A stretch of DNA of 29,639 bases from UHGV virus genome UHGV-0037185. One strand, given 5' to 3'. Source of the DNA: a virus. Each line of letters opens with the position of its first letter. The stretch's first letter is position 1. Under the pieces are notes generated by a model. The model saw nothing but the letters and a program-made list of their open reading frames with translations. It searched no databases and had not been told where the DNA came from. A program made the position numbers and the translations under genes. This document shows, one piece after another, positions 1,693-28,500 of the stretch.

Positions 1693-1706
1693 TTTTCGTC
1701 ACCCCC

Positions 1707-4153
1707 TTAACCGTCATGCATCATGCTGGCACGGGCGCGCGCACGTTTATCCCGCTCGTATTTTTCGAGCGCATCCTGTAACTGGCGGTCAAGCTGTGCC
1801 CCCGGCGCAGTACCACCCGTCAGGCTGATGTGATATTCGTTTTTACTCTGGTCCACATAAGAGCGACCAGCCGGTGCCGTGACCGGCTGATAAGCCTGAT
1901 AGCCTGCATAAGAGCTGGTCGCCGGAATATAACCACCGGTGCCATACGTGGCGGCATGAGTCCTTGCGGCGGTCTGGTCAAGTGTGTCTGACTCTTTGTT
2001 GATAACCCCGAGTTTTTCCAGTACCCAGTCAATACCGCTGCGCAGTTTGTTGAACGCATTAAGCGGCAGCATCAACGCGTCAGCCAGTGCCTGCCCGAAC
2101 ATGACGCCCGTGTCACGGCAACGGTTCAGGGTGTCCTGGGTGGCTTTAACCGGGGCAATCAGGTTTTTAAACCACTGCCACGCGGCCTGTAACTTTTCGC
2201 CCAGCCAGTCAAACACCGGCTTCAGTGGCGTGAACAGTTCTCCCACCGGCGCAAATGCCGCTTTCAGCCCTTCCACCACACCGCCAAAGAATGCGCTGAC
2301 AGGCTCCCAGTATTTACGGATAAGCAACGCCCCGGCGACAATGGCGGCCACCACGGCCACAACCGGCCAGCTAATCGCCCCGATGGTCGTCATAACAGCA
2401 CTGCTAACCGTCGTGAAGATTGCCCCCATTGCGCCTGCTGCCGCGATAATGGCATTGATGCCGGTGATAACCGGCCAGGCTACAAGACCAATGGCACCGA
2501 TGATGCCAATAAGCGCCAGCGCGCCACCGACAATGAGGCCGATGGTTGACGCCAGTGATTTGTTTTTCTGGATCCAGCCGTCGAGTTTTAACACATACTT
2601 TGTGGCCGTCTGAGTGAGCTTACGCAGTGCGCCTTCCTGCTGGTCAAACAGGTCAGTCCCCACTGCCTCATAAGCGGACTGAAACTCTTTAAAGTCACCG
2701 CCTAGGTTGTCCTGCATGATATTTACCAGCTCGGCGGTCTTCCCGTCTGAGGCTTTAAACGCAGCGGTCAGTTTGTCCAGCTTTCCGGTTGAGGCGGCAG
2801 TCATCAGCACGGCGGCGGCTGAGCTGGCCTCCTCCCCGAAAATAGTTTTCATGTATTCAGCCTGCTGGGCAGTACCGAGCCGGTTTTTCTCAAAACTGGC
2901 CTGCATTTCTTTCAGAATGGTAAATATTGGCCGGGTGTTTCCCTTGCTGTCTGAGGTTTTCACTCCAAGCTCTTTGAGTGCATCCCATGCTTTTCCCGTC
3001 GGTGCCTGCAGGCGGCTTAATACGGCACGGCTTCCCGTCCCCGCCATTGAGCCTGTGATTTTTGCATCATGCAGCGCCCCGACCATTGCGGCGGTTTCTT
3101 CAATGCTGACATCGGCATTTTTTGCCACAGGTGCGGCATAGGTCAGCGCATCGCTCATGCCGTCAAAATCGGCGGCGGTTTTGTTCATCGTCATGGAGAG
3201 AACATCCCCGATATGAGCGACCTTATCGTTTGAAAGCTGAAAGGCGGATTTCATCCCCATCAGCAGGGCGGCGTTTTCTTCCATCGTGCGGCGGTTCGCC
3301 AGCGCCATATTCAGCGTGACCGGCGTTGCCGCCTGAATGGCATCAACATCCCCACCCGCTTTCGCGATGATTATCTGTGCACCGGCCGCATCATCCGCCG
3401 AGGCGGCGGTATTGTCGCCGAGCTGGCGCGCCTGTTTGCGTAGTGCGGTCATTTCGGCGGAGTCTTTTGCCACTCCGAGCACGGCCTGCAATTCTGAGTT
3501 TTTCTGCGCAAACTCATAACCGGGCATCAGCAGCTTAACTCCGGCCATCGTTCCCGCCGCCGCAATCCCCACACCGGCAGCGCCACTGAGGCCATATTTC
3601 CGGCCAGTTCCTTTCCGGCCTGATAACGCTGTTTGACTGCGTTAAGTTTTGCCTGTTGCGCACTGACACGCGCCAGCGCGTCGCGCTGACGGTTAAGCTG
3701 TGCGGTGGTTTCACTGATACGGTTTTTCAGCCCCTGCTCATCATGTGCAAGATTGCGGGTATTAATTCCCACAACGGCCAGTTCCCGCTGCTGGCGTTTA
3801 ACGGAATCCGTCAGGCGGTTATATTTCGCCTGTAAGTCCTCCGCCGCACGCTTTGCGGATTCCAGCACTTTCGCCTGAGCACGTGTCGGACGTTCGGTGT
3901 TTTTAAACTGTGTGGCAAGGGCTTCGGCCTCCTGCCGTGCCTTTTCAAGTGCATGACCAGTCACGGCGAGCTGTGCACTGGTCTTGCGAAATCCCTCAAT
4001 ACGGGATGCGTGACCGTTCAGCTCGCGCAGTGATTTTTGTGTTTCCCGGATATCCCCCGACAGCGACTTACTCGCTGTGCGGATGGATTTAAACGGGCGG
4101 GATGCCTGGTCAACAGCCCTGAGCAATACCTGTAATTTTACATTGTTACTCAT
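1707..4153 (-). pseudogene. T: Tail tape measure protein gpT, interrupted by an apparent 1-nt deletion frameshift near 3578-3590
   Basis: Two ORFs (3527..4153, 208 aa, starting MSNNVKLQVLLRAV; 1707..3572, 621 aa, with long hydrophobic and Gly/Ala-rich stretches) are collinear with one tape measure protein. Span is 2447 nt, one nt short of the 816 codons expected for an 815-aa P2-like gpT. Confidence 0.8.
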
Positions 4154-4573: not shown

Positions 4574-4629
4574 GGTTTTCTCACTTCTGAATCAGGGTTA
4601 ACCGGCCAGCCAGGCTGACCGGATGAAAA

Positions 4630-5148
4630 TTACAGGCCGATATTGCGGCGGTGTTGCTCCAGCCGGTCGACGCCGTTCACCTTCTCAATCATGTTGATGG
4701 TGTCGATTTCGACCAGCTCCTTACCGTCCATCGTCAGCCGGAAATAGGTGCAGACCACGGAGATTTTCGACTCGGTGTCTTCTCCCTGTTTACCCTCGCC
4801 GGTGTCGATTTCTTTCTGACGGCCACGCATGACCACCTCTACGGCCACCGTTTCGCCGGTATCGTCACGCTGGTAAGAGCCTGCAAAACGAATCGGCACG
4901 GCATCCACACCGGTTGCGGCGTAAAGCTCCCAGATAACCGAATCCGGGAAGCCCCCGAGCGACCACTCCATTGACAGCGCATCGTCATCAAGGCCGAGGT
5001 CTACCGGTGCGCTTCCGTTCATCCCCGCACCGCGATAGTTTTCGAGTTTACGGGTCAGTTTTGGCAGCGTGACGGACTTTGCAACGCCCTGATAGCTGTA
5101 GCCGTTCAGAAAGACGTTCATTAACTTGAGTTTGCGCGGCATTGCCAT
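4630..5148 (-). CDS. FII: Tail tube protein gpFII
   Basis: 172-aa ORF, same length and position as P2 FII. Confidence 0.9.
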   Translation of the reverse strand: MAMPRKLKLMNVFLNGYSYQGVAKSVTLPKLTRKLENYRGAGMNGSAPVDLGLDDDALSMEWSLGGFPDSVIWELYAATGVDAVPIRFAGSYQRDDTGETVAVEVVMRGRQKEIDTGEGKQGEDTESKISVVCTYFRLTMDGKELVEIDTINMIEKVNGVDRLEQHRRNIGL

Positions 5149-5160
5149 CGGTCAGGCTCC

Positions 5161-9738: not shown

Positions 9739-10346
9739 GCGTTTACTCTCAGGTTATCAATTAAATGAATGGCCGAGGCCGGGAAATAATCCCCTCCGAC
9801 AATAATGGCCTCCGGGGTGTAGGGATAAACCGTCAGGGCGTCACCGTGATAGCATCCCGCACCGGCAAAAATGTTGCCGGTTGTACTTAAACTGATAGCC
9901 AGTCCCGTCAGATGGCGACTTGCAGGTTTTGCATCAGCAACGAGACGCTCCAGCTCCTGATACATTTCCTCGGTAATACCCTGCTCAAGCACGCCAACAA
10001 CGATGCGGAACGTCCCCGGCTCCTCGTTGAGCTGCCACCACTCCCTCACCTCAATCAGATAGCCGAGCGGCTCCACCACACGGCGAATCGCACCAATAGT
10101 GCCCTTATGGCAGTGAATGAAATACGCATCGCGGATAACAGCGCGTTTTGTCGCTTCCGGCCATTTATCATCCCAGCGGTCAACCGAAAATGACCACGCC
10201 AGCCACGGCAGCAGATTTGCCGGACAGGTATCCGGGTTCCACAGCTCACGAATACTGACCGGCGTTTTTTCAATTTCCGCACAGGCTTTTGCGGCGGCGA
10301 CTTCAAGCGGTGATGAGCCGGTCGGCAGCAGGCGCGAATCACTCAT
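9735..10346 (-). CDS. I: Baseplate assembly protein gpI
   Basis: 203-aa ORF between J and H by P2 synteny (V-W-J-I-H-G). Confidence 0.8.
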   Translation of the reverse strand: MSDSRLLPTGSSPLEVAAAKACAEIEKTPVSIRELWNPDTCPANLLPWLAWSFSVDRWDDKWPEATKRAVIRDAYFIHCHKGTIGAIRRVVEPLGYLIEVREWWQLNEEPGTFRIVVGVLEQGITEEMYQELERLVADAKPASRHLTGLAISLSTTGNIFAGAGCYHGDALTVYPYTPEAIIVGGDYFPASAIHLIDNLRVNA

Positions 10347-11245
10347 CCGAGCCTCCGGTCACGACGCTGTATTCGGTGCAGAAAGACGCCTGCGTACTGT
10401 TGAGCACAATGTCGGCCAGTGGTGCGGCCAGCTCGACACGCTGCACGCCTTCCACATGCAAAGCGGCATAAATGGCAGACAGACGGATGTCACGCCCCAG
10501 CCGGTGCTGTGCCGTGATGTACGCTTCCAGTTTTTTCACGGCAGCAGCGCGGATGGGTTCGCTTTCGGGACCAGGGTAAAGGTAAAGCGTGGCGTTTATC
10601 TGGTATTCAACGATGGCGGCAGACTGCACGGTCACGCGGTCGGCCACCGGCCTGACGTCCTCACCATTAAGGGCGTTACGCACCACGGCCAGCAGGTCTT
10701 CGGATGCAACACCGTTATTTTCACGTGACAGCACAGAGATGGTGACGCAGGCCGGAGACGGACTGGTTACAGAAATATCCGCGACACGCCCGTCGGCACT
10801 GCGACCATGATACTGATAGGCTCCCACCGACCCGGCGACGCTTAAACCTTCAAACGCCTGCTGAATACGCAGACGGTAATCGGTGTCAGATTCCATCACG
10901 GCCGGTGTCGGCGGGAGGGTCGAATCATCTGCCGGGGTGATAGTCAGGCGCGTGGTGTTGTAATTGGCACCAATCACATCAAGGTCATTACCGGCGGCAC
11001 AGGCCAGCATTACCGCCCGTGCAGCCTCATACACGCTGACGCCAGATAAGCTCACGATAAGCATTTTCCTCCAGCAGTTTGACGAGAGGCTCGGATTCCA
11101 GCGTCAGGGTACGGGCGACCGCCTCCTGCTGGTCTTCCGGGTAAAGGGAAATCAGTGTCGCCTTGCGTTCGGCGAGAATGGTTTCAAAGTCCAGCTCCTC
11201 GACCACATCCGGTGCGGGTAGCTGGTTCAGGTCGATAATCGGCAT
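10339..11245 (-). pseudogene. J: Baseplate protein gpJ, interrupted by a frameshift near 11029-11035
   Basis: N-terminal 72-aa ORF (MPIIDLNQLPAPDVVEELDFETILAERK...) stops at 11027; the remainder continues in another frame (10339..11064). Span is 907 nt, two nt short of the 909 expected for a 302-aa P2 gpJ. Confidence 0.8.
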
Positions 11246-14666: not shown

Positions 14667-14946
14667 TACGGTTTCCCCCTGCCCTTAAAGCGGCGCTGAA
14701 TGGCAATCTCAATCACCTGATAACCGGCGATACCCAGCATGGAGCCGATACCGCACACCGCAGGCAGTGACAGGTCAGGAAACTGCACCAGAACAACACC
14801 GGCAACCATCGAGACAAACCACCAAGCAACATGCGCCCGATAAACAGACGCGGGGTGATGGGTTCACCACCGGCAAGCACCTTGCCGACAACAATCAGCA
14901 CCCCAATCATGAAAAGCGACAGGACGCTTTTTTCTTCTGCTGTCAT
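14666..14946 (-). pseudogene. Y: Holin gpY, interrupted by an apparent 1-nt deletion frameshift near 14812-14818
   Basis: N-terminal 45 codons (MTAEEKSVLSLFMIGVLIVVGKVLAGG...) are in one frame; the holin-like C-terminus (VSMVAGVVLVQFPDLSLPAVCGIGSMLGIAGYQVIEIAIQRRFKGRGKP, stop overlapping the K start) is in another. Span is 281 nt, one short of 94 codons. Confidence 0.8.
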
Positions 14947-17582: not shown

Positions 17583-17640
17583 AGTTTTTCCTGAAATTAA
17601 GGGTTAATCGTGAAGGTTTTCCCGGACTGACTGACGCCGG

Positions 17641-18667: not shown

Positions 18668-20440
18668 ATGACCATCACCACAGACACCACTCTTTTACAC
18701 GACCCGCGTCGTCAGGCGGCGCTGCTGTACTGGCAGGGATTTTCCGTGCCGCAGATTGCCGCCATGTTGCAGATGAAACGCCCGACGGTGCAGAGCTGGA
18801 AACAGCGCGACGGCTGGGACAGCGTTGCCCCCATCAGCCGTGTCGAAATGAGCCTGGAAGCGCGGCTGACCCAGCTCATCATCAAACCGCAGAAAACCGG
18901 CGGTGACTTCAAGGAAATTGACCTGCTGGGACGCCAGATTGAACGACTGGCACGGGTAAATCGCTACAGCCAGACCGGCAACGAGGCAGACCTTAATCCG
19001 AACGTCGCTAACCGCAACAAAGGCGGGCGGCGCAAACCGAAAAAGAATTTTTTCAGTGACGAGGCCATCGAAAAGCTGGAGCAGATTTTCTTTGAGCAGT
19101 CTTTCGACTATCAGTTGCACTGGTATCGCGCCGGGCTTGAGCACCGCATCCGCGATATCCTGAAATCCCGCCAGATTGGCGCAACGTTTTATTTTTCCCG
19201 CGAGGCGCTGCTGCGCGCCCTGAAAACCGGTCATAACCAGATTTTTCTGTCGGCCAGTAAAACGCAGGCGTATGTGTTCCGCGAATACATCATCGCCTTT
19301 GCCCATCTGGTTGACGTTGACCTTACCGGTGACCCGATTGTCCTGGGCAATAACGGCGCAAAACTGATTTTTCTCGGCACCAACTCCAACACCGCGCAGA
19401 GCCATAACGGCGACCTGTACGTCGACGAGATTTTCTGGATCCCGAATTTTCAGGTACTGCGTAAGGTGGCATCAGGTATGGCCTCACAGAGTCACCTGCG
19501 CTCGACCTATTTCTCCACCCCGTCCACGCTGGCGCACGACGCCTACCCGTTCTGGTCGGGTGAACTGTTTAACCGGGGACGCGCCAGCGCCGCCGAACGC
19601 GTGGAAATCGACGTCAGTCATAACGCCCTTGCCGGTGGGCTTCTCTGTGCGGACGGTCAGTGGCGGCAGATTGTCACCATTGAGGACGCCCTGAAAGGTG
19701 GCTGCACGCTGTTCGACATTGAGCAGCTCAAACGCGAAAACAGCGCCGACGATTTTAAAAACCTGTTCATGTGTGAATTTGTTGACGACAAGGCATCGGT
19801 GTTCCCGTTCGAGGAGCTGCAACGCTGCATGGTCGACACGCTGGAAGAATGGGAAGACTATGCGCCGTTTGCCGCAAATCCGTTCGGCTCACGTCCGGTA
19901 TGGATTGGTTACGACCCGTCACACCGTGGCGACAGCGCCGGATGCGTGGTACTGGCACCGCCGGTGGTGGCCGGTGGCAAATTCAGAATACTTGAGCGTC
20001 ACCAGTGGAAAGGCATGGACTTTGCCACCCAGGCGGAATCCATCCGCAAACTCACCGAAAAATACAACGTCGAATACATCGGAATTGATGCCACCGGCCT
20101 CGGTGTCGGCGTGTTCCAGCTCGTGCGCTCGTTCTATCCCGCCGCGCGCGATATCCGCTACACGCCGGAAATGAAAACCGCAATGGTGCTCAAGGCAAAA
20201 GACGTTATCCGCCGTGGCTGTCTGGAATATGACGTCAGCGCCACCGACATCACCAGCTCGTTTATGGCTATCCGCAAGACCATGACCAACAGCGGACGCA
20301 GTGCCACCTATGAGGCCAGCCGCAGCGAGGAAGCCAGCCACGCCGACCTCGCCTGGGCGACCATGCACGCCCTGTTAAATGAGCCACTCACCGCGGGTAT
20401 CAGCACTCCGCTGACATCCACCATTCTGGAGTTTTACTGA
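18668..20440 (+). CDS. P: Terminase large (ATPase) subunit gpP
   Basis: ORF from GTG 18644; the ATG at 18668 (MTITTDTTLLHDP...) gives 590 aa as in P2 gpP. Confidence 0.9.
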   Translation: MTITTDTTLLHDPRRQAALLYWQGFSVPQIAAMLQMKRPTVQSWKQRDGWDSVAPISRVEMSLEARLTQLIIKPQKTGGDFKEIDLLGRQIERLARVNRYSQTGNEADLNPNVANRNKGGRRKPKKNFFSDEAIEKLEQIFFEQSFDYQLHWYRAGLEHRIRDILKSRQIGATFYFSREALLRALKTGHNQIFLSASKTQAYVFREYIIAFAHLVDVDLTGDPIVLGNNGAKLIFLGTNSNTAQSHNGDLYVDEIFWIPNFQVLRKVASGMASQSHLRSTYFSTPSTLAHDAYPFWSGELFNRGRASAAERVEIDVSHNALAGGLLCADGQWRQIVTIEDALKGGCTLFDIEQLKRENSADDFKNLFMCEFVDDKASVFPFEELQRCMVDTLEEWEDYAPFAANPFGSRPVWIGYDPSHRGDSAGCVVLAPPVVAGGKFRILERHQWKGMDFATQAESIRKLTEKYNVEYIGIDATGLGVGVFQLVRSFYPAARDIRYTPEMKTAMVLKAKDVIRRGCLEYDVSATDITSSFMAIRKTMTNSGRSATYEASRSEEASHADLAWATMHALLNEPLTAGISTPLTSTILEFY

Positions 20441-21474
20441 TGAGCAAGAAAAAAGGGAAAACACCGCGACCAGCGGCAAAAAAAATGACCGCCAGCGCCC
20501 CGAAAATGGAGGCATTCACCTTTGGTGAACCGGTGCCGGTACTCGACCGCCGTGACATTCTGGATTACGTCGAGTGCATCAGTAACGGCAGATGGTATGA
20601 GCCACCGGTCAGCTTTACCGGTCTGGCAAAAAGCCTGCGTGCTGCCGTGCATCACAGCTCACCGATTTACGTCAAACGCAATATTCTGGCTTCAACGTTT
20701 ATCCCGCACCCGTGGCTGTCCCAGCAGGATTTCAGCCGCTTTGTGCTGGATTTTCTGGTGTTCGGTAATGCGTTTCTGGAAAAGCGTTACAGCACCACCG
20801 GTAAGGTCATCAGACTGGAAACCTCACCGGCAAAATATACCCGCCGTGGCGTGGAGGAGGATGTTTACTGGTGGGTGCCGTCCTTCAACGAGCCGACAGC
20901 CTTCGCGCCCGGCTCCGTGTTTCACCTGCTGGAGCCGGATATTAATCAGGAGCTGTACGGCCTGCCGGAATATCTCAGCGCCCTTAACTCTGCCTGGCTG
21001 AATGAGTCAGCCACGCTGTTCCGCCGCAAGTATTACGAAAACGGCGCTCATGCCGGATACATCATGTACGTTACCGATGCCGTGCAGGATCGCAACGATA
21101 TCGAAATGCTTCGCGAAAACATGGTGAAGTCGAAAGGCCGCAACAACTTTAAAAACCTGTTTCTCTATGCCCCGCAGGGGAAAGCTGACGGCATTAAAAT
21201 TATCCCGCTCAGTGAAGTGGCAACGAAGGACGATTTTTTTAATATCAAAAAAGCCAGCGCCGCTGACCTGCTGGACGCGCACCGCATCCCCTTTCAGTTG
21301 ATGGGCGGCAAGCCGGAGAACGTCGGGTCGCTGGGTGATATTGAGAAAGTGGCAAAGGTCTTTGTCCGCAATGAGCTTATCCCGTTACAGGACAGGATCC
21401 GCGAGATAAACGGCTGGCTCGGTCAGGAGGTCATCCGCTTTAAAAACTACTCACTGGACACTGACAACGGCTGA
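20440..21474 (+). CDS. Q: Portal protein gpQ
   Basis: 344-aa ORF (MSKKKGKTPRPAAKK...), same length as P2 gpQ; start overlaps the P stop. Confidence 0.92.
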   Translation: MSKKKGKTPRPAAKKMTASAPKMEAFTFGEPVPVLDRRDILDYVECISNGRWYEPPVSFTGLAKSLRAAVHHSSPIYVKRNILASTFIPHPWLSQQDFSRFVLDFLVFGNAFLEKRYSTTGKVIRLETSPAKYTRRGVEEDVYWWVPSFNEPTAFAPGSVFHLLEPDINQELYGLPEYLSALNSAWLNESATLFRRKYYENGAHAGYIMYVTDAVQDRNDIEMLRENMVKSKGRNNFKNLFLYAPQGKADGIKIIPLSEVATKDDFFNIKKASAADLLDAHRIPFQLMGGKPENVGSLGDIEKVAKVFVRNELIPLQDRIREINGWLGQEVIRFKNYSLDTDNG

Positions 21475-21502: not shown

Positions 21503-21629
21503 CACCCTCACATGCTCACCACCGCACAAAACAGCCCGCAGACACACCAACGCCCCGGCGAACAATCTAAACGCCATCACGACGCGCTCAGACGCTGAAA
21601 AAATAAAATCAGCACCACCGCCAGCGCGC

Positions 21630-21648
21630 AGTGCTTTCCCCGCCTCGC
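21630..21648. other. cos site (19-nt cohesive end sequence)
   Basis: Plus strand gtgctttccccgcctcgcc, the reverse complement of GGCGAGGCGGGGAAAGCAC, which I recall as the P2 cohesive end; located just past Q as in P2. Confidence 0.8.
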
Positions 21649-21886
21649 CCGCCCGCTTCATGGGGCGGTTTTAATGCAGTTGCAATAACACATCAAAACA
21701 TCGTCAATACAGGCGATTATAAACAATAAAAAACGATCGCTGCCGCATGCAAAATCATGCACTAAATGCATGTATTGAAGGGAAATTAGGAACGTGCTCG
21801 TTTGGGTCTAAACTATGATTTCGACACAACTATTTTCCCCAAATCAAAACTAAATTCGACATCCCCATTTACGATATTTTCATTTG

Positions 21887-22708
21887 TCACATGCTCATCA
21901 AAAAGGTCACTAACATCATACCCCGACTGAAACACTGGCTCATGATAGCCACGTCGGTGAATGGCTCTTTTTCATGTGTTATATAATATTGACCATAAAC
22001 ATTTGCAGATTCATCTGCATCATTAAGACTAAGGACTGTTTTTGCTTTGACTTCAGGCATCAGAGAAAAATCAATATTATTCAACAAACACAGTAAGATG
22101 CCTGCTATTGCTCTCCTGTTATTATCAAGCGGCATCAAGTCCACCCCTGGAATCGCCTTCCGAAGCAATATTTTCAGCTCATTAAATAAAGAGTCGAACT
22201 TAATTGCGTCAGAACAATTGAGTAACGACAAAGCTTCATTAATCATTCGCCCTTCATTGGAACCAATTTCTGATGTTAACTTACAAACACCATCATTAAC
22301 AATATACGATTTTTTGTTATTAAGCTTCTTCCTCGCTGTAATTACCTGTCCCCCCTTTAAGTTTAACTTCTCCTTTAAAAACTCATCACTGAACATTCTT
22401 AATTGCAGTCTGATTAATGTAGGTAAGTATTTCGGGTATTCATTTAACTCTGGTTTAACAGCATACTTGTCGCGTCCAAATTTTAAACTTAATAACAAAT
22501 GATTCCTCAGCATGATATCCTTTATCTCGCCTTGATCTCTCCGATGATTATGGGCAACAAAACTCCCAATTTCAAAAATACACTTGGGCGCACTCGGCAA
22601 CTCACGGGCCGTAACAAAAAGAACATCAATATCACTATCAGTGAAACTCCCATCCTTTAATCTTCTCAACACTCTCTCTATTCTTGAGATTGCTTTACTT
22701 TTATTCAT
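21887..22708 (-). CDS. Hypothetical protein, 273 aa, AT-rich cargo gene at the tin/old position (candidate anti-phage defence protein)
   Basis: Long ORF in a strongly AT-rich stretch flanked by GC-richer phage genes; same strand as A, ends about 240 bp from cos; no family recognised. Confidence 0.7.
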   Translation of the reverse strand: MNKSKAISRIERVLRRLKDGSFTDSDIDVLFVTARELPSAPKCIFEIGSFVAHNHRRDQGEIKDIMLRNHLLLSLKFGRDKYAVKPELNEYPKYLPTLIRLQLRMFSDEFLKEKLNLKGGQVITARKKLNNKKSYIVNDGVCKLTSEIGSNEGRMINEALSLLNCSDAIKFDSLFNELKILLRKAIPGVDLMPLDNNRRAIAGILLCLLNNIDFSLMPEVKAKTVLSLNDADESANVYGQYYITHEKEPFTDVAIMSQCFSRGMMLVTFLMSM

Positions 22709-23034
22709 GACATTCTTTCAACCTTAATCAATATTTAATTTAAATAAACCATTCTCATACGCCAACCATACCTGTGACACCTGACAAACCAAATAAAAAC
22801 AAAGGTACAGCGGATATTGGTATGTACAGCTATATTACACATAAACTCATGTTAGTAACATAAGATCTTCTTGTGAATATTTGTAATTTATTAGTTCACC
22901 AACATTAATCTTTCCAACCGTTATAAATCCAATCATATGCTGATACTCAAATGACGGCCAACTACCACCTCGCGCTGTTCGTTGTTCCCTCCAGCAGCAC
23001 TGGAAGCATGTTTCAGTACTGCTGGGGTTTTCTA

Positions 23035-23250
23035 TCAACAACGTGGTAGCAGTGCAATTTTAGACTGTTCTATATCGTTAAACCGCACGTAATTATCCCG
23101 GACTATTTCGGCACACCCGACCAACTCGTCGGGCGTCAGATTTTCGTTGACCATAATCTGCTGTAGACGGTGAACAATAGCCATCAGCTTGATATTTTTA
23201 GTGTTATGTTGCGGTATCTCGCCTGGTATTCTGTGCATTATCCAAGCCAC
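23035..23250 (-). CDS. Hypothetical small protein (71 aa)
   Basis: Start overlaps the end of the upstream ORF by 13 nt, suggesting translational coupling; no recognisable domain. Confidence 0.4.
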   Translation of the reverse strand: MAWIMHRIPGEIPQHNTKNIKLMAIVHRLQQIMVNENLTPDELVGCAEIVRDNYVRFNDIEQSKIALLPRC

Positions 23251-23690
23251 CCGTTTTGCTTTGCACGCTCAATCTGTTCATCTGAATAGTTCCATGCTCC
23301 ATCCGTGGCAACCATTGCCCCGCCAGACATCCCCGTCTCTGGTTCATACATAACAGCAAGGCCGAGCTGATGCATAATTTCATGATTAATTCTGAATACC
23401 AGACCACGCTCACTAAGTTCTTTCCAGTTCACAATCTCATATGCGCCTGTATTAAGCTGCTCAATACTCAGCAAGACATAATCTTCCAGCCAGTCTGACA
23501 GGTCAGTAACATCTGTTATCCGGGCTTCAACCTTTCGCCCCGTATACACACCCTGCACCCATTCATGCAAAATCAACGTGTCCCCGCGCTCATAATTACG
23601 GTCATTTTTCCGAAACTCTGCGCGTTTCTTTCCTTCCAGCACAAGGTCGAAATATTTTGCGTGCAGCTTTACCTCGTGAATTTTTGCCAT
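23238..23690 (-). CDS. ASCH-like (DUF3850-type) protein, about 150 aa
   Basis: N-terminus MAKIHEVKLHAKYFDLVLEGKKRAEFRKNDRNYERGDTLILHEW fits the DUF3850/ASCH pattern as I recall it; the ATG at 23690 overlaps the A stop (ORF track extends to 23726). Confidence 0.6.
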   Translation of the reverse strand: MAKIHEVKLHAKYFDLVLEGKKRAEFRKNDRNYERGDTLILHEWVQGVYTGRKVEARITDVTDLSDWLEDYVLLSIEQLNTGAYEIVNWKELSERGLVFRINHEIMHQLGLAVMYEPETGMSGGAMVATDGAWNYSDEQIERAKQNGWLG

Positions 23691-25975
23691 CATGTCCACT
23701 CCATTACTGTTGAGAATCCCGGCCACTCATCAGCGACCGGATACGTGAATTTTTTCCCGTCATAATTTACAGTCGCGCCACGCGCCAGCGCCTCAAGCTC
23801 CCATCGCTGCGGCCTGATACCGTTCTGAGCAAGGTCAACGCGGATACGGGTGATTTGCATTCGTTCCGACCGGGTCAGTCTGGCCGATGGCGCAATTTCA
23901 TGCGGTTTTAACGTGCTTCCGTTTCTTTGCTGACAGTTTGGTCTTCTATGTCCGTGTTTTAATGCGCCCCTGAGCGCCCTCACGACCTCCGGGTCATTCC
24001 ATTCGATAACACCGTCATCAACCAGATTAAGCACTGCTGCGGCGTGTTCAGAAGGTGTGGGGGCCGGTAACGAAGTATCACCACCGGTGAGCTTTCCACA
24101 GTTATTGACAGGACTCCGAGGCGCGGCGATGCCGCTTTTTAAAGTCAAAGGCTCAACGACCGGCACTTTCGGAACAATGCGCCAGTCCGTCGTTCTGGTG
24201 ATATGAATATGACGCGCGCCGAGATGCGGCGCGTAAATGCCGACCACTCTCTCGACTTCTTCCTCGTACTCGTTAACTTCATCCGACGGACTACGGGCAA
24301 CCCTGACAGTCTGACAATCGCGCGGAACATTTGCCCCGCCCTGCGCGCTGATATACAGCGCAAAATCACCACTGTCTGCGGCGGCGCGTGCAGCCTCGAC
24401 GCGCTCGTCAAACTCATCAGCAATGCTGACGCCGCGAGGCAATTTGCGTAGTTCACGGTAAGCCCCCATTGTCGGCAGGCCAACCGTTTTAAATTGCGGA
24501 ATGCGCCACGTTGACGCCCATGCGGTAACAGCTGCGGCAGTATCTTTCAGAGGTCTGCCGGTATCGTTATCGAGCTGCCCATCCAGTGCATAGCCGTCGA
24601 TATTTTTTGAGATGTATTTCGCGATATACCCCGCAGCACCGCCCCGGTTAAGATGTTTTGCCTGAAAACGGTTTCGCGCGGCTCCTCTTTCGTCGCCATC
24701 CTCTTTGAGCGCATAGCGACGCATGATTTCGATAATCTGGTTACGCTGGCGTGGATTACAAAAAAGCATCATATGCCAGTGCGGCGTTCCGTCGTGGTGT
24801 GGCTCGACGACGCGCAAACCGTAGACCTGTAAATCATTATCCTTGAATGCCGTGCGCATCAGGCTCCAGATACGGCAGAGATAACGCTGCGCATCCTTTG
24901 GATTAAATGCCTCATCGTTCCAGCCGTGATTAAGCTGAACGGTTTTACTTTCGCCTTTTCCGACCTGACGTGTCGGGTGATACTTTGACGGCGCGGTCAG
25001 CGTGATAAACATCCCCACATCACCCTCTGCGGCGGCGTAACGCTCAATACCGGCAATGGTGTTCATCAGCTCCATCCGGCGAATTTCAGGATTAGAAATA
25101 CTGCCCATCACCTTACTGATAAGGTCGATGCGCTCGCCGGTTTCCCTGTTTTCAAGGTCACACGATTTAAGAAATTCCAGATTTGCCTGGCGGCGCGCAC
25201 GCACATCACGAATGGCGTGTTTACTGGCATAAGGAGAACGGTCTTTATTGACCTCCCCGACAGCTATCAGTAACGCTTCATGCCAGCGCATACGCTGGCC
25301 TTTAAGCTGATGAGTCCACCACTCATCGTTAAACAGACGGGCAATGGCAGAATATGCCTGCCTCGTGGTCATCTGTCCTTTACGGTATTTTTTCCAGTAA
25401 AGCGGGGAAATATTGAAAGCACGTGCAGCGCCAGCAACATGACCATACAGATGCGCCTGCGCCTCATCCGTAAACAGCGATTCTTTTTCGCCATGCGCAT
25501 CCACCCAGGCATCGCAGAGTTCCTCATACATCATGAAAATCTGCGATGAGATACGGGCGGCAAACTTTTTCAGCTCCTTGTCATTCATTCCAGGCAGGCG
25601 CGCATAGTGGTCACGCTCTGCCAGAAACAGCAACGACGCGTCGGTGTTCATTTCATGGCGCTGATTCACACGCTCAATACGCGGCCATAAACGACGCTGA
25701 AAAGTGGATGTGAGGAAATAAAACCCGTGTACCGGACTTTTATTGCGCCGGATGTAGTCATAGCGTGAAGTAAACAGCGAGCGCAAAAAGTAAGGCAGGC
25801 GGTTAATCGTGGATAAAACACCTTGCACCTGACGCATCTCGTCACGTGTAAGAGGTCTTTCTCGCCCGACGGCCTCGCGTGGCGCGTTCCATGCATAAGC
25901 ACCGGTAAACGTCTCACCGGTGCCTGCGGCAAATGCTGACGGAGGGACAAAACGCCCGGAGGCTTTAACGGCCAT
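23690..25975 (-). CDS. A: Replication initiation protein gpA (rolling-circle HUH nickase)
   Basis: ORF 23690..26017; the start at MAVKASGRF gives 761 aa as in P2 gpA; contains HUH motif (PHWHMMLF) and active-site tyrosine motif (YIAKYISK). Confidence 0.9.
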   Translation of the reverse strand: MAVKASGRFVPPSAFAAGTGETFTGAYAWNAPREAVGRERPLTRDEMRQVQGVLSTINRLPYFLRSLFTSRYDYIRRNKSPVHGFYFLTSTFQRRLWPRIERVNQRHEMNTDASLLFLAERDHYARLPGMNDKELKKFAARISSQIFMMYEELCDAWVDAHGEKESLFTDEAQAHLYGHVAGAARAFNISPLYWKKYRKGQMTTRQAYSAIARLFNDEWWTHQLKGQRMRWHEALLIAVGEVNKDRSPYASKHAIRDVRARRQANLEFLKSCDLENRETGERIDLISKVMGSISNPEIRRMELMNTIAGIERYAAAEGDVGMFITLTAPSKYHPTRQVGKGESKTVQLNHGWNDEAFNPKDAQRYLCRIWSLMRTAFKDNDLQVYGLRVVEPHHDGTPHWHMMLFCNPRQRNQIIEIMRRYALKEDGDERGAARNRFQAKHLNRGGAAGYIAKYISKNIDGYALDGQLDNDTGRPLKDTAAAVTAWASTWRIPQFKTVGLPTMGAYRELRKLPRGVSIADEFDERVEAARAAADSGDFALYISAQGGANVPRDCQTVRVARSPSDEVNEYEEEVERVVGIYAPHLGARHIHITRTTDWRIVPKVPVVEPLTLKSGIAAPRSPVNNCGKLTGGDTSLPAPTPSEHAAAVLNLVDDGVIEWNDPEVVRALRGALKHGHRRPNCQQRNGSTLKPHEIAPSARLTRSERMQITRIRVDLAQNGIRPQRWELEALARGATVNYDGKKFTYPVADEWPGFSTVMEWT

Positions 25976-26240
25976 ATGAGCCAAAAGCCTCTGAACAACG
26001 CTTGCTGAGTTGCTCAACCTGCGCGTTTAAATCAGCAAAAGACTTTGCGCTTCCGGTCAGAATATCGTGATGCATCAGGCCGGAAACGAGCTGGCTTAAT
26101 TTCGGGTAATAACCAACCACCGCCAGCCATTCCTGACCGGCGTTTTTACCGCTTTCAGCTCTCTTTTTCTCGTGGAGAATAAACTGAAAGCTGTCACTGG
26201 TAACGACATAACGTTCGCCAATTTCAATACGAATACTCAT
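25965..26240 (-). CDS. Hypothetical protein (P2 orf83 position)
   Basis: 91-aa ORF in the B-to-A early operon, tightly packed with neighbours. Confidence 0.6.
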   Translation of the reverse strand: MSIRIEIGERYVVTSDSFQFILHEKKRAESGKNAGQEWLAVVGYYPKLSQLVSGLMHHDILTGSAKSFADLNAQVEQLSKRCSEAFGSYGR

Positions 26241-26461
26241 GCCGTTCTCCGGTAATGTTTGTTTTTTGCTTCAAAAACTGACTGACAGGAAACACAACGC
26301 GTGGCTGACGGATAAGCCGCACGACGGGCAGCAGGTATTGGCGCGTCACACTCTTCGCAAACCATCGCAGAAGCACCGCAATGTTTTACCCTTGCCGCGT
26401 TAATCTGGCGCTCCAGTAATTCAGCCTGTTGTTCCTGAATAAAATCTACGTTGTCCGGCAT
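26237..26461 (-). CDS. DksA/TraR-family C4 zinc-finger protein (P2 orf82 position)
   Basis: 74-aa ORF with CxxC...CxxC (CEECDAPIP...CVSC). Confidence 0.8.
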   Translation of the reverse strand: MPDNVDFIQEQQAELLERQINAARVKHCGASAMVCEECDAPIPAARRAAYPSATRCVSCQSVFEAKNKHYRRTA

Positions 26462-26766
26462 TACCAGTTCCTTTTGTCGTTAAGGTTTTTAAATTCATCA
26501 GCGCAATAGCTGGCGATTTCTGTCGTTAATTTCGTCAGTTCATCCACGGAGGAGATTTGCTTGTGAAACACAGCGCGTTTAACAAGCAAATTGACCACAT
26601 CAGACAGGAGGTTTAATTCGTTCTGATAAATCGCGATAACAGACTCAGTTATTTCGCGTTTTTCTTTATCAAGACCAAGTTGAATAAGAGACAAATCGCC
26701 ATTTTTCATAACGGCGATTTTTAAGGCGTTATTCAGTAATACAACTGAATGAGAACAGGACATCAA
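26461..26766 (-). CDS. Hypothetical protein (P2 orf81 position)
   Basis: 101-aa ORF with stop/start overlap to both neighbours. Confidence 0.6.
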
Positions 26767-26987
26767 AGCACCTCCCCGCGAGACAATCCGATATTGTGAA
26801 ATTTTTCCGACTCCTGACTGAGCATCTCGACTATCTCCACGCGGGATAACTCCGCCTTTGTGATATGGCGAATCATGGCGTCAAGATGAGAAGAAAAGCG
26901 TGTCGCTGCGTCGGCCTGTGCTTCGGCTCTGGCCTGTTGCAGCAGTAATGCGTATTTACCGCACTTGTTTTCAGAAACTGTATGCAT
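26763..26987 (-). CDS. Hypothetical protein (P2 orf80 position)
   Basis: 74-aa ORF between B and the orf81-position gene. Confidence 0.6.
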
Positions 26988-27049
26988 GACTTTCTCCAGG
27001 CAAAAAGAAGCCCCGCACGATTAAGTGCGTTAAAACTCTGGTTAATTAC

Positions 27050-27550
27050 TTAATGCAGATATTGCTCTGGTTTTACCGACGTCAGAATTGTCGGTGCATA
27101 CTCAAACAGGCTGAATAATTCACGTAATGCACGGAATAAAGCATCACGCCAGTAACATGATTCTTCATTAATTCGCCAGTATGGCTGGTTGAATTCTTTT
27201 TCAGTCAATCCGGCATGCATAAATAAAGTACGACGCTGACTGACTGTTAAAAAACTAATATATGCATACTCACTTGCGCCAACCTGACGGCGTTTTGAGA
27301 ATGCCCCACGCAATTCATCAATTGCACATACCAGTCGTTCACGTTCGACATCATTCATTTCTTCAAAACGCATCGTTGCGTGGCGCTGTTTTAACTGCGC
27401 ATGGAAGCAAACCGTTAGCCGTTCGCGTTCCATCATCTGATTATAATAATCGCATGTCTCCTGCCAGCGAGGGACGGCAAGATGCTTACCAATTATCCTG
27501 CGCATAGCTGCTGGCTGTTTTTCGACGAGATTAAGCGTCATCACTGTCAT
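27050..27550 (-). CDS. B: Replication protein gpB
   Basis: 166-aa ORF, same length and position as P2 gpB. Confidence 0.85.
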   Translation of the reverse strand: MTVMTLNLVEKQPAAMRRIIGKHLAVPRWQETCDYYNQMMERERLTVCFHAQLKQRHATMRFEEMNDVERERLVCAIDELRGAFSKRRQVGASEYAYISFLTVSQRRTLFMHAGLTEKEFNQPYWRINEESCYWRDALFRALRELFSLFEYAPTILTSVKPEQYLH

Positions 27551-27783
27551 TTCCAGACCCTCCGGCTTTTCAGAAAGGTCAGAGCCTTTTTTAACGGACT
27601 CTGTTTTTTGGTACGGATAATGATTCCCTTGCGCCCCTTCCCGTGGGTGATGGTGAAGTCAATCGCCCTGGGGCTTTCGTTACGCAATAACTGAGCAATA
27701 CAACGAGGCTCGTTCATCCTTTCCACCTTAAGCCGCACGGCCATGTCTTGATTTGCTGTAACTAATGCGATTTTTCCAGTCAT
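27547..27783 (-). CDS. Hypothetical protein (P2 orf78 position)
   Basis: ORF 27547..27807; the internal start MTGKIAL gives 78 aa; start choice uncertain. Confidence 0.5.
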   Translation of the reverse strand: MTGKIALVTANQDMAVRLKVERMNEPRCIAQLLRNESPRAIDFTITHGKGRKGIIIRTKKQSPLKKALTFLKSRRVWK

Positions 27784-28084
27784 GCCATTCTGTCGGAGCT
27801 TCATCAACTAGCTGGGCTGCGTACTTGTCCCACTCACGACGATTAATCCATAACTCAGCATGACCGCCCGGCTTTAATGGGTCCGTCATATAAAAGGCTG
27901 GTAACTTGCCTGCTTTCGCCATTTCAGCAACAGCACGAGGCGTCTTACCGATGTAAAGAGCAAAACCCTCTTTCGAGAGCAAATCCGACGGTGCGGCTGC
28001 AAGTTTGATGTCACATTTTTTACTTTTTGTGAGATCAGATACTTTTTCTCCAACATCGTTATTCATTTCTGATCCAATACTCAT
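27728..28084 (-). CDS. cox: Cox-like excisionase / early-promoter regulator
   Basis: HTH segment ALYIGKTPRAVAEMAKAGKLPAFYMTDP resembles P2 Cox (AKLIGKSTGAVRRMIDKGKLPVIDMTDP, from memory); divergent from C. Track ORF starts at a TTG (28114); true start uncertain. Confidence 0.6.
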   Translation of the reverse strand: MSIGSEMNNDVGEKVSDLTKSKKCDIKLAAAPSDLLSKEGFALYIGKTPRAVAEMAKAGKLPAFYMTDPLKPGGHAELWINRREWDKYAAQLVDEAPTEWHDWKNRISYSKSRHGRAA

Positions 28085-28188
28085 TTTGATATCCTCAACT
28101 TTGGTGCCATTCAATCAGAGCTATTTGAAGCCGCTCTGCGTTGTTCTGGCGTGTCGCATACAACATAAATTACGAGATACGACAATTC
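28085..28188. promoter_or_regulatory. Immunity switch region (expected Pe and Pc promoters and operators)
   Basis: About 100-bp region between divergent cox and C, by P2 synteny; no operator repeats confidently identified. Confidence 0.45.
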
Positions 28189-28500
28189 ATGTCAAATACA
28201 CAAATCACATCTCAAGCAGAGAAACTCGCACTTATTCGGGAATCAGAAAGAATGACAAGGAAGCAAGTTGCTGAATTAACTGGAATTAACTACAACACCT
28301 ATGCTGGATATGAGCAGGGAAAAGTAAAGATGTCTTTTGACGCAGGTATGAAATTTTTCAAGCCAGAAAGATTTCGCAAGTACCGTGACTGGTTCATGTT
28401 TGATGAAACTGATCCCGCTGGCGGACAAATAGCCCCGGCGCTCGCGCACATTGGGCAAGACTCAACAACCTTGCACCACTCAGACCAAAAGACTGGCTGA
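28189..28500 (+). CDS. C: Immunity repressor C
   Basis: Internal start MSNTQITSQAEKLALIRESERMTRKQVAELTGINYNTYAGYEQGK (HTH); C-terminus GQIAPALAHIGQD...HHSDQKTG resembles P2 C; followed by int on the same strand. Confidence 0.8.
   Translation: MSNTQITSQAEKLALIRESERMTRKQVAELTGINYNTYAGYEQGKVKMSFDAGMKFFKPERFRKYRDWFMFDETDPAGGQIAPALAHIGQDSTTLHHSDQKTG

What the first reader, a model, noticed from the sequence alone, without database searches (positions are those of the whole stretch)
21650..22900. AT-rich cargo island at the P2 tin/old position encoding an unplaceable 273-aa protein
Between cos (21630..21648) and the replication module, where P2 carries tin and old, the window has a visibly AT-rich block with one long ORF (21887..22708, minus strand) and a roughly 325-bp AT-rich upstream region. 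The composition contrast with the flanking phage genes indicates a horizontally acquired moron. This locus is a known variable hotspot for anti-phage defence genes in P2-like prophages (Rousset et al. 2022, as I recall). I cannot match the protein (MNKSKAISRIERVLRRLKDGSFTDSDIDVLFVTARELPSAPK...) to any family by eye, including Old or Tin, whose sequences I do not remember. A single-gene defence or abortive-infection function is my leading guess.
Basis: partly seen in the sequence, partly recalled or inferred. Interest (0 to 1): 0.8.

Follow-up and report, generated by a model that had tools for sequence, protein, structure and literature searches.

The report
Orphan cargo gene in P2 hotspot
The AT-rich block next to the P2-type cos site is a real single-gene cargo cassette whose protein belongs to a widespread, uncharacterised family with no known relative by sequence or fold; it keeps turning up at phage "moron" positions, so it is a credible but untested phage-defence candidate, and the copy in this window carries a one-base frameshift.

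Summary
Window 21688-22845 is the lowest-GC stretch of the window (0.364 against 0.530). It lies between P2 cos (21631-21649) and the gpA replication module, which is the documented gpA-gpQ hotspot. The 273-aa ORF is not the native protein. The window lacks one base (GGG->GG at 21936) present in all relatives, whose gene encodes 298 aa. The intact form is on more than 1,100 public contigs and the 273-aa form on one. Similar homopolymer deletions break three essential phage genes here, so sequencing error or prophage decay are both possible.

The protein matches only PHROG 29586 (unknown function). It is "system #75" (53 occurrences, no Pfam) in Rousset et al. 2022 and does not appear among the systems they tested. 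It has no Pfam, NCBIfam or PADLOC hit and is unrelated to Tin or Old. Two confident AlphaFold models have no neighbour in PDB or BFVD.

A profile search finds at least 419 clusters across Proteobacteria and Bacteroidota. Members are always standalone and lie in P2-like hotspots (two very divergent subfamilies), tail-module moron sites, integrase islets and small plasmids, and beside QatABCD and toxin-antitoxin genes.

Best reading: a new single-protein phage-exclusion candidate. Its function is untested.

The parts
21631..21649 (-). P2-type cos, 19-nt cohesive end
   Evidence: Exact match to P2 cosR GGCGAGGCGGGGAAAGCAC.
21650..21780 (.). Conserved cos-proximal DNA, including the hairpin 21756-21772 followed by a TTTTGCATGC tail. 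This is not part of the cargo.
   Evidence: Megablast homology to P2-like phages covers 21650-21687. The hairpin and tail are shared with a Klebsiella P2-like prophage, and a similar element lies near cos in P2. The terminator-like scan flags it.
21813..22708 (-). Cargo gene in its native extent. It is 896 nt here and 897 nt / 298 aa in relatives. It belongs to PHROG 29586 and is Rousset P2-hotspot system #75.
   Evidence: restoring one base gives 298 aa, 292/298 identical to system #75. (PHROG).
21887..22708 (-). The ORF as it stands in the window: 273 aa, made of 257 native residues plus a 16-residue out-of-frame tail.
   Evidence: The exact 273-aa product is on a single public contig, E. 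coli GCA_003464885.1, RGW38051.1.
21936..21937 (.). Site of the 1-nt deletion (+ strand GGG->GG) that shifts the frame.
   Evidence: Alignments to CUVM53 and JNE120442, to M45 and again to CUVM53.
22433..22708 (-). Codons 1-92: the most conserved part, a basic helical N-terminal domain. R35, A52, H53 and G60 are invariant across the superfamily, and F22, E46, R57 and P92 are nearly so.
   Evidence: conservation; helices; conserved loop 52-60; pI 9.5.
22265..22432 (-). Codons 93-148: three helices plus a beta-hairpin. It looks like a winged helix and is very basic (pI 9.9).
   Evidence: Secondary structure in both models. Only weak, non-significant matches to winged-helix proteins. Charge.
21816..22078 (-). 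Codons 211-298: an acidic (pI 4.1), sequence-variable C-terminal beta domain. Its last 41 residues are lost to the frameshift.
   Evidence: The lost stretch holds F270 (invariant) and D271, V274 and T275 (90% or more conserved) in the close family.
22709..22845 (.). Cassette-specific upstream region, 137 bp, GC 0.321.
   Evidence: It is not conserved with the Klebsiella or Dickeya cassettes beyond the bases next to the ATG.
22846..23034 (.). Upstream intergenic DNA shared with P2-like phages P22H4 and 9W, which carry different cargo.
   Evidence: Promoter-like sites here are no more frequent than in shuffled sequence.
23035..23238 (-). 67-aa gp92-like backbone gene (WP_021517479.1, phrog_11386).
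   Evidence: seen on 999 or more contigs.
23238..23726 (-). Orf91-like DUF3850/ASCH protein with a DUF7415 C-terminal part. This is the backbone edge of the hotspot.
20440..21474 (+). Portal gene Q, the other backbone edge of the hotspot.

Best explanation
This is a single-gene accessory cassette (a "moron") in the gpA-gpQ hotspot of a P2-like E. coli prophage. Its native product is a 298-aa soluble protein of an uncharacterised superfamily.

I think the protein is most likely a standalone phage-exclusion (defence) protein. In this model the basic N-terminal half engages nucleic acid or a nucleoprotein target of an incoming phage. That half holds the invariant R35/H53/G60 and near-invariant E46/R57 site plus a winged-helix-like module. 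The acidic, fast-diverging C-terminal beta domain would set specificity or keep the protein inactive until a phage trigger arrives.

Shown here: the cassette, its borders, its position in the hotspot, the frameshift, the family and its distribution, the absence of a partner gene, the domain layout and the conserved residues.

Inferred: the defence role, nucleic-acid binding, and the division of labour between sensor and effector.

In this window the reading frame is broken after residue 257, so the copy as sequenced would lack part of the beta domain. That is either a homopolymer sequencing error or real decay.
For: Position. The gene lies between cos/portal Q and Orf91/gpA. This is the hotspot where P2 carries tin and old and where Rousset et al. 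catalogued 169 cargo systems and validated three of the eight additional systems they cloned, plus old-tin (PMC9122126). A 2026 study confirms it as a main P2 defence hotspot (PMC13586616).

Foreign composition. GC is 0.364 against 0.530.

Recurrence at moron sites.
- All 10 close-family IMG/VR loci, plus the Klebsiella and Dickeya prophages, have the gene in the A-Q hotspot.
- A subfamily only 17-24% identical (hhalign probability 99.7%) sits in the same hotspot of Aeromonas and other P2-like elements.
- Five other viral contigs carry it antiparallel inside a P2-type tail/baseplate module.

Other mobile or defence-type contexts.
- An integrase + resolvase islet in V. parahaemolyticus.
- Directly beside QatABCD.
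- Between toxin-antitoxin pairs on an Acinetobacter plasmid.
- Among 136 neighbours of 15 genome loci: 5 integrases, plus AriA, AbiLi, SoFic, RT and methyltransferase hits.

Standalone. No neighbour family is conserved across loci.

Architecture. Both AlphaFold models are confident and agree (pLDDT 91 and 86). Conservation is concentrated in residues 21-60 and the C-terminus is variable. The N-terminal half is basic and the C-terminal domain acidic.
Against: - There is no experimental evidence of any kind.
- No similarity to any known defence protein or domain, so nothing supports a specific biochemistry.
- Rousset's hotspot also carries non-defence cargo such as partition systems and a cytolethal distending toxin, and five of the eight additional P2 systems they cloned showed no activity against their panel.
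- Several distant members sit alone among housekeeping genes with no defence neighbour.
- The neighbour enrichment was not tested against a background and rests on about 25 loci.
- The winged-helix assignment rests on secondary structure and non-significant matches.
- No isolated phage among 50,697 records carries the gene.
- In E. coli the gene runs co-directionally with the early operon, so expression in the lysogen is not established. The promoter scan is at chance level.
Confidence: 0.45

Rival explanations
1. A non-defence accessory protein that binds DNA. It would act as a regulator or maintenance factor serving the element that carries it, for example by controlling phage, satellite or host genes, or by helping plasmid or episome maintenance.
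For: - A basic N-terminal half and a winged-helix-like three-helix plus hairpin module.
- Weak matches are to MarR, Rex, TubR and ArgR-type winged-helix proteins.
- It is one of only four ORFs on the 5.3-kb Psychrobacter plasmid pA21BP1, which has no annotated Rep.
- The P2 hotspot is known to carry partition systems.
- In E. coli, Klebsiella and Dickeya the gene is co-directional with the early replication operon.
Against: - There are no iterons or repeats beside the plasmid copy.
- The Acinetobacter plasmid copy sits among toxin-antitoxin genes on a replicon with its own Rep.
- Members occur at unrelated chromosomal sites and inside tail modules, where a regulator tied to one element would make little sense.
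- The fast-diverging C-terminal domain is more typical of conflict genes.
Confidence: 0.27
2. A counter-defence or inter-element competition factor. It would help the P2-like phage overcome host or satellite immunity, rather than protect the lysogen.
For: It is carried by temperate phages at variable positions. In E. coli it sits downstream of, and co-directional with, the early lytic operon, with no terminator detected between them, so it could be expressed early in infection. The acidic C-terminal domain (pI 4.1) could mimic nucleic acid.
Against: - Only two anti-defence system types were detected, in 28 of 1,511 P2 elements, in the 2026 survey (PMC13586616).
- Many members are in non-phage chromosomal islets and plasmids, beside defence and toxin-antitoxin genes.
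- At 298-330 aa it is large for typical anti-defence proteins (my general knowledge).
Confidence: 0.1
3. A selfish, self-mobile gene such as a transposase, recombinase or homing-type endonuclease. It would spread on its own account.
For: Solitary insertions between housekeeping genes. An invariant Arg/His/Glu cluster and a DNA-binding-like module.
Against: - No terminal inverted repeats around four insertions.
- One copy per genome as a rule (median 1 place per genome).
- The same site is used across V. parahaemolyticus strains.
- No hit to any transposase, recombinase or endonuclease family.
Confidence: 0.05
4. On the frameshift only: the 273-aa ORF is an artefact of homopolymer sequencing error in the draft assembly, and the strain really encodes the intact 298-aa protein. 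The alternative is a genuinely decaying prophage.
For: - The deletion is private to one of more than 1,100 contigs.
- The window also has 1-nt deletions in short homopolymers in tape measure T (CCC->CC), holin Y (AAAA->AAA) and three intergenic sites, plus a 2-nt deletion in baseplate J.
- Every indel outside the divergent gene I patch and the intergenic stretches at 17628 and 21504-21552 is a deletion in the window, in otherwise 96-99% conserved sequence.
- The CGR project, to which I believe this assembly belongs, sequenced part of its genomes on Ion Proton (PMC6784896).
Against: - I could not verify that this assembly belongs to that project, nor its platform.
- The J deletion is 2 nt and not in a homopolymer.
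- Pseudogenes are common in P2 prophages overall (PMC13586616), so real decay with four broken genes is possible.
Confidence: 0.6

Closest known systems
P2 Tin (NP_046797.1, 253 aa) and P2 Old (NP_046798.1, OLD-family ATPase/nuclease)
   Same: Same genomic position, between Orf91/gpA and cos. Same kind of element: non-essential lysogenic-conversion cargo of a P2-type phage. Like Tin, it is a mid-sized soluble protein without a recognisable domain that would act alone.
   Different: No sequence relationship (hhalign probability 0.3% to Tin and 6% to Old). No AAA or Toprim domains. tin and old are transcribed towards gpA from a promoter near cos, whereas this gene runs in the same direction as gpA.
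Rousset et al. 2022 P2-hotspot catalogue, including the validated single-gene DUF4238 system (PMC9122126)
   Same: It is one of the 169 catalogued cargo systems of the same hotspot: system #75, 53 occurrences, single protein, no Pfam, 292/298 identical to the repaired window protein. It has the same one-gene format as the DUF4238 system that protects against T7.
   Different: Its sequence is absent from their table of evaluated systems, so it does not appear to have been tested. It has no DUF4238 or other Pfam domain.
PHROG 29586 (unknown function)
   Same: The window protein matches positions 1-264 of 298 at E = 7.9e-180 and the intact form matches full length at E = 6.9e-209. 78 of 79 diverse superfamily members match it and nothing else.
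   Different: The PHROG carries no annotation, so membership gives a name but no function.
P2 Z/fun and other morons inserted in myovirus tail-gene clusters
   Same: Five distant family members lie antiparallel inside a P2-type tail/baseplate module. PMC13586616 describes a defence hotspot within the P2 tail genes. From my own knowledge, P2 carries Z/fun at a tail-cluster position.
   Different: I made no sequence comparison with Z/fun. The window copy is at the A-Q hotspot, not in the tail cluster.
Single-protein abortive-infection genes of the AbiD/AbiF (Abi_2, HEPN) type
   Same: Similar size, mostly helical N-terminal part, standalone, carried on mobile elements.
   Different: No Abi_2 or HEPN Pfam hit in any of 79 members. 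No Rx4-6H motif conserved at any aligned column (at most 9 of 79). The conserved motif here is F-V-A-H-N-x-x-R-D-x-G.

Membership tests
P2 gpA-gpQ cargo hotspot cassette (Rousset et al. 2022) | Located between the replication gene A (with Orf91) and cos/portal gene Q of a P2-like element | tested here: met
   Q is at 20440-21474, cos at 21631-21649, Orf91-like at 23238-23726 and A at 23690-26017. The definition is in PMC9122126.
P2 gpA-gpQ cargo hotspot cassette (Rousset et al. 2022) | Variable content between conserved backbone borders | tested here: met
   Homology to other P2-like phages stops at about 21687 and resumes at 22846-23053. Those phages carry other cargo.
Rousset P2 system #75 / PHROG 29586 | Sequence identity to the catalogued protein, or a match to the profile | tested here: met
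   292/298 identical after restoring the missing base. PHROG match at E = 7.9e-180.
Validated anti-phage defence system | Protects a host against phage when expressed | not testable with these tools
   No experiment was possible. The sequence is absent from Rousset's table of evaluated systems. No paper mentions WP_001043197, WP_139506986 or phrog_29586.
Known defence protein families (PADLOC-DB v2.0.0) | Profile match to a known or candidate defence protein | tested here: not met
   No hit for the window protein. Among 79 diverse members there were only three isolated single-member hits (E 0.006-0.009) and no family shared by two or more members. The library dates from 2023 and DefenseFinder models were not available.
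P2 Tin | Sequence or profile similarity to Tin | tested here: not met
   hhalign probability 0.3%.
OLD-family nucleases (P2 Old) | ABC-type ATPase plus Toprim domains; similarity to Old | tested here: not met
   hhalign probability 6% over 19 columns. No AAA or Toprim Pfam hit.
HEPN-type Abi proteins (AbiD/AbiF, Abi_2) | Conserved Rx4-6H motif in a helical domain; Abi_2/HEPN profile match | tested here: not met
   No profile hit. The motif is not conserved at any aligned column.
Winged-helix DNA-binding proteins | Three-helix bundle plus beta-hairpin wing with significant structural or profile similarity to known winged-helix domains | tested here: inconclusive
Insertion sequences / transposases | Terminal inverted repeats, multiple copies, transposase domain | tested here: not met
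   No flanking inverted repeats. Median of one place per genome. No transposase family hit.
Plasmid replication initiators (Rep) | Similarity to Rep families; adjacent iterons or origin | tested here: not met
   No Rep Pfam or NCBIfam hit. No structural match to solved Rep proteins. No iterons next to the pA21BP1 copy. The Acinetobacter plasmid has its own Rep.

The most novel reading that the evidence does not exclude
The family is a new single-protein anti-phage system with a fold not represented among solved structures. A previously undescribed N-terminal domain, built around the invariant R35/H53/G60 (with E46 and R57) loop, would be the effector or target-binding site. The rapidly diverging acidic beta domain would be the phage sensor. 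The family would be spread across Proteobacteria and Bacteroidota by temperate myoviruses, small plasmids and integrative islets.
Probability: 0.35. Interest if true: 0.7.

Novelty: new variant of a known kind. Interest (0 to 1): 0.5.

Why it matters
The P2 gpA-gpQ hotspot has already yielded several defence systems, and most of its catalogued cargo is still untested. This cassette stands out among those unknowns for four reasons:
- Its protein family is large (at least 419 clusters at 50% identity).
- It is phylogenetically broad.
- It is absent from Pfam, NCBIfam and PADLOC.
- It is predicted with high confidence to adopt a fold with no solved relative.

Two very divergent branches have also landed independently in the same phage hotspot, and other members in a second moron site. 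If the gene protects against phage, it adds a compact single-gene system with probably new biochemistry. It would also offer four or five obvious residues to mutate.

If it does not protect, it is still a widespread mobile-element protein of unknown role. For this particular window the practical message is narrower. The annotated 273-aa protein should not be used for cloning or modelling; the 298-aa form should.

Tried and rejected
- **Profile libraries.** Pfam, NCBIfam and PADLOC gave nothing consistent for the window protein or for 79 diverse members. PHROGs gave only the unannotated 29586.
- **PDB sequence searches.** Three profiles gave nothing significant.
- **Direct comparison with Tin and Old.** Unrelated.
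- **Rfam on the island.** Only a spurious mir-15 match below threshold.
- **Promoter scan.** At chance level.
- **Conserved partner gene.** None. A same-sized neighbour in Aeromonas veronii is not a paralogue.
- **IS-like element.** No terminal inverted repeats.
- **Rep protein idea from the small Psychrobacter plasmid.** No iterons, and the other plasmid has its own Rep.
- **IS903B in two E. coli genomes.** It lies downstream of an intact gene, so it is not a disruption.
- **Hairpin at 21756-21772 as the cassette's own terminator.** Rejected, because it belongs to conserved cos-proximal DNA.
- **Literature look-ups.** Searches by accession, PHROG id and plasmid name found no paper.
- **Second large-database search.** The search with the broad alignment hit its candidate cap and added nothing.
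- **Source assembly.** I could not link it to a sequencing platform.
Full report
**1. The observation**

The ORF 21887..22708 on the minus strand (273 aa) exists. The surrounding DNA is AT-rich: GC is 0.32-0.39 between about 21700 and 22900, against 0.52-0.58 on both sides. The block 21688-22845 has GC 0.364 against 0.530 for the whole window. It is the lowest of all 1158-bp windows (mean 0.532, sd 0.054). The non-coding stretch upstream of the ORF is 326 bp (22709-23034, GC 0.365).

The neighbours are:
- portal Q (20440-21474, +);
- a 67-aa gp92-like gene (23035-23238, -);
- an Orf91-like DUF3850/ASCH gene (23238-23726, -);
- the replication endonuclease gpA (23690-26017, -).

In reference P2 the same interval holds tin and old.

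**2. A correction: the ORF is frameshifted**

PHROG 29586 has 298 positions, and the window protein matches only positions 1-264. All 25 E. coli complete genomes that carry the island annotate two intact hypothetical CDSs across it. In every record inspected the cargo gene is 897 nt, or 298 aa.

Alignment shows that the window lacks one base, GGG->GG on the + strand at 21936. Restoring it gives a 298-aa protein. As sequenced, residues 1-257 are native and 258-273 are out of frame. The native frame runs on to a stop at 21813. The lost C-terminal stretch contains F270 (invariant) and D271, V274 and T275 (conserved in 90% or more of the close family).

The exact 273-aa product is on one public contig, E. 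coli GCA_003464885.1 (RGW38051.1), which is evidently the source of the window. The 298-aa forms are on more than 1,100 contigs.

The frameshift is not peculiar to this gene. Relative to the prophage of strain M45, the window has uncompensated deletions in:
- the tape-measure gene (1 nt, CCC->CC, about 3582; ORFs split at 3527-3572);
- baseplate J (2 nt, about 11030; ORFs split);
- holin Y (1 nt, AAAA->AAA, about 14815);
- three intergenic homopolymers.

Two of these, 18656 and 21936, recur against a second relative, CUVM53. Apart from a patch of compensating indels in the divergent gene I and larger intergenic differences at 17628 and 21504-21552, every difference is a deletion in the window.

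This pattern fits homopolymer sequencing error somewhat better than decay. A project I believe this assembly belongs to used Ion Proton for part of its genomes (PMC6784896), but I could not verify that link. A decaying prophage remains possible, since pseudogenes are common in P2 elements (PMC13586616). I put sequencing error at about 0.6.

**3. Limits of the cassette**

On the cos side, megablast homology to other P2-like phages covers 21650-21687. A hairpin at 21756-21772 with a TTTTGCATGC tail is shared with a Klebsiella P2-like prophage, and P2 has a similar element near cos. It therefore belongs to conserved cos-proximal DNA, not to the cargo.

On the gpA side, homology resumes at 22846 (phages P22H4 and 9W), at about 22961-22995 (most others, including a P2 isolate (OU784549/NC_070904) and Wphi), or at 23053 (P37). 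Phage 9W carries different cargo after the shared 189 bp.

The cassette proper is therefore the gene plus 137 bp of very AT-rich upstream DNA (GC 0.321). Promoter-like sites are no more frequent than in shuffled sequence (4 found, 4.9 expected). No Rfam family matches meaningfully.

Unlike tin and old, which are transcribed from near cos towards gpA, this gene runs in the same direction as gpA. The same is true in Klebsiella and Dickeya.

**4. What the protein is**

The close family has 34 clusters at 90% identity. All are about 297 aa and 42-99% identical. They come from E. coli, Citrobacter, Klebsiella, Salmonella, Cronobacter, Serratia and Dickeya, and every one is named "hypothetical".

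A profile search of 1.8 billion cluster representatives found 419 proteins at E <= 1e-3, 126 at E <= 1e-10 and only 13 at E <= 1e-30. So this is a large, divergent superfamily of proteins of about 290-340 aa. Profile-profile comparison of the close family with a distant subfamily gives probability 99.7% and E = 1.7e-26 over 259 columns.

Genome scans place distant members in Gamma-, Beta- and Alphaproteobacteria and in Bacteroidota.

None of 79 diverse members matches any Pfam, NCBIfam or PADLOC family consistently. 78 of the 79 match PHROG 29586 and nothing else. The protein is unrelated to Tin (probability 0.3%) and to Old (6%).

**5. Structure**

An AlphaFold2 model of the intact E. coli protein is confident (pLDDT 91.0, pTM 0.84). 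So is a model of the distant Aeromonas member (pLDDT 86.2, pTM 0.83). Both show the same order of elements:
- a helical N-terminal domain, with a conserved loop between helices 3 and 4;
- three helices followed by a beta-hairpin (residues 95-144 in the E. coli protein);
- a helical linker;
- a C-terminal beta domain.

Across the superfamily R35, A52, H53 and G60 are invariant, and F22, E46, R57 and P92 are nearly so. Conservation peaks at residues 21-60 and falls towards the C-terminus. The conserved motif reads F-V-A-H-N-x-x-R-D-x-G. There is no conserved HEPN-type Rx4-6H motif.

The N-terminal domain and the helix-hairpin module are basic (pI 9.5 and 9.9), and the beta domain is acidic (pI 4.1). 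There is no membrane segment.

The winged-helix reading of residues 93-148 is only a lead. The matches to TubR, ArgR, MarR-type proteins and Rex are all below significance.

**6. Where the family lives**

*Close family.* All 10 IMG/VR loci, plus the Klebsiella and Dickeya prophages, have the gene between gpA and portal Q, including elements whose portal is only 35% identical to the window's.

*Distant subfamily.* Members are found in the following settings:
- in the same hotspot of an Aeromonas caviae P2-like prophage and two other viral contigs;
- antiparallel inside a P2-type tail/baseplate module in five viral contigs, with Baseplate_J, gp25/W and Tail_P2_I on one side and GpU, GPD and tape measure on the other;
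- in a five-gene islet with an integrase, an RNase H and a resolvase in Vibrio parahaemolyticus;
- directly beside QatABCD in two metagenomic contigs;
- between BrnT/BrnA and an HTH + RelE-like pair on an 11-kb Acinetobacter plasmid;
- on a 5.3-kb Psychrobacter plasmid with MobA;
- in islands of hypothetical genes;
- as solitary insertions among housekeeping genes.

No neighbour family is conserved across loci, so the gene acts alone. Among 136 neighbours of 15 genome loci there are five integrases, plus hits to AAA_21/AriA, SLFN_AlbA_2, AbiLi, SoFic, a reverse transcriptase and DNA methyltransferases. I did not test this against a background.

No isolated phage in 50,697 records carries a member. 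There are no terminal inverted repeats.

**7. What is already known**

Rousset et al. 2022 defined this hotspot (18,150 loci, 169 curated systems). Besides old-tin, they tested eight further P2 systems and found three active (PMC9122126).

Their Table S5B lists this protein as system #75: no Pfam, 53 occurrences, single protein. It is 292/298 identical to the repaired window protein. Table S5A lists the arrangement "DUF3850/ASCH + hypothetical + hypothetical" with WP_001043197. The protein string is absent from their table of evaluated systems.

No paper in the library mentions its accessions or the PHROG id. The cassette is therefore catalogued but uncharacterised.

**8. Interpretation**

What is shown:
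- a foreign single-gene cassette at a documented cargo hotspot;
- an orphan but large protein family with a conserved N-terminal polar site;
- a confident fold without known relatives;
- standalone organisation;
- repeated, independent arrival at phage moron positions and other mobile contexts.

What is inferred is the function. I favour a standalone phage-exclusion protein (about 0.45). The hotspot and the tail-module site are where P2-type phages keep such genes. The gene also travels alone on phages, plasmids and islets, next to defence and toxin-antitoxin genes. And the pattern of a conserved N-terminal half with a variable C-terminal domain is typical of conflict proteins.

A mechanistic sketch follows. 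The basic N-terminal half binds nucleic acid, and the acidic beta domain senses the phage or inhibits the protein until triggered. This is consistent with the charge split and the helix-hairpin module, but it is not demonstrated.

The main rival is a DNA-binding regulator or maintenance factor (about 0.27). A counter-defence role (about 0.1) and a self-mobile gene (about 0.05) are less likely.

**9. Verdict**

The locus is one of many untested cargo systems already listed for this hotspot, nothing here demonstrates defence, and the copy in this window is frameshifted. What lifts it above an ordinary hypothetical protein is the size and breadth of the family, its complete absence from curated libraries, the confident fold with no solved relative, and its convergent placement at phage hotspots.

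Noticed in passing
window ~3582 (tape measure T; ORFs 1707..3572 and 3527..4153), ~11030 (baseplate J; ORFs 10339..11064 and 11027..11245), ~14815 (holin Y; ORF 14713..14946): Three essential phage genes carry uncompensated 1- or 2-nt deletions relative to related prophages, mostly in short homopolymers. There are three further 1-nt homopolymer deletions in intergenic DNA (4594, 18656, 27031). Either the draft assembly has homopolymer errors or the prophage is decaying.
   Followed up: partly
window 21756-21772, with tail to about 21785: A hairpin (CATGCATTTAGTGCATG followed by ATTTTGCATGC) near cos is shared with a Klebsiella P2-like prophage. It resembles an element near cos in P2 and in the P4 sequences printed in Rousset's Table S2. 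It may be part of the extended packaging signal or an insulating terminator.
   Followed up: partly
window 23238-23726 (-): The Orf91-like protein is 162 aa and combines DUF3850/ASCH with a C-terminal DUF7415. P2 Orf91 is 109 aa with DUF3850 only.
   Followed up: no
window 22979-23037 (-): Rfam mir-15 match at 23.8 bits, against a gathering score of 57.3. It is a eukaryotic family and I take the match to be spurious.
   Followed up: no
window 26050-28200: A second, milder low-GC stretch (about 0.44) over the early/immunity region of the prophage. I did not examine it.
   Followed up: no
L006 679-3150 (Dickeya sp. NCPPB 3274 prophage): Between the integrase and the repressor, this P2-like prophage carries a KAP_NTPase gene and a 312-aa gene. 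This is probably cargo in the integrase-proximal hotspot described in the 2026 study.
   Followed up: no
L004 1258-1809 and L005 341-892; gap at L003 7055-8000: Klebsiella cassettes have an extra stretch upstream of the family gene. Gene callers give it inconsistent ORFs (61-183 aa; "putative prophage protein"). It is unclear whether it is a real gene.
   Followed up: partly
L043 814-1782 (E. coli EC9952); also H25: An IS903B is inserted between the intact cargo gene and cos in two E. coli genomes.
   Followed up: yes
L044 (Psychrobacter plasmid pA21BP1, 5,342 bp): This plasmid has only four sizeable ORFs (MobA/MobL, the family member, and two small proteins without Pfam hits). It has a 1-kb non-coding stretch without iterons and no annotated replication gene.
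   Followed up: partly
L025 (NC_070906.1, Peduovirus P2 isolate) 646-5236: Another P2 isolate carries a different cargo at the same hotspot: a PAPS-reductase-like cysH gene, a 763-aa protein and a 311-aa protein.
   Followed up: no
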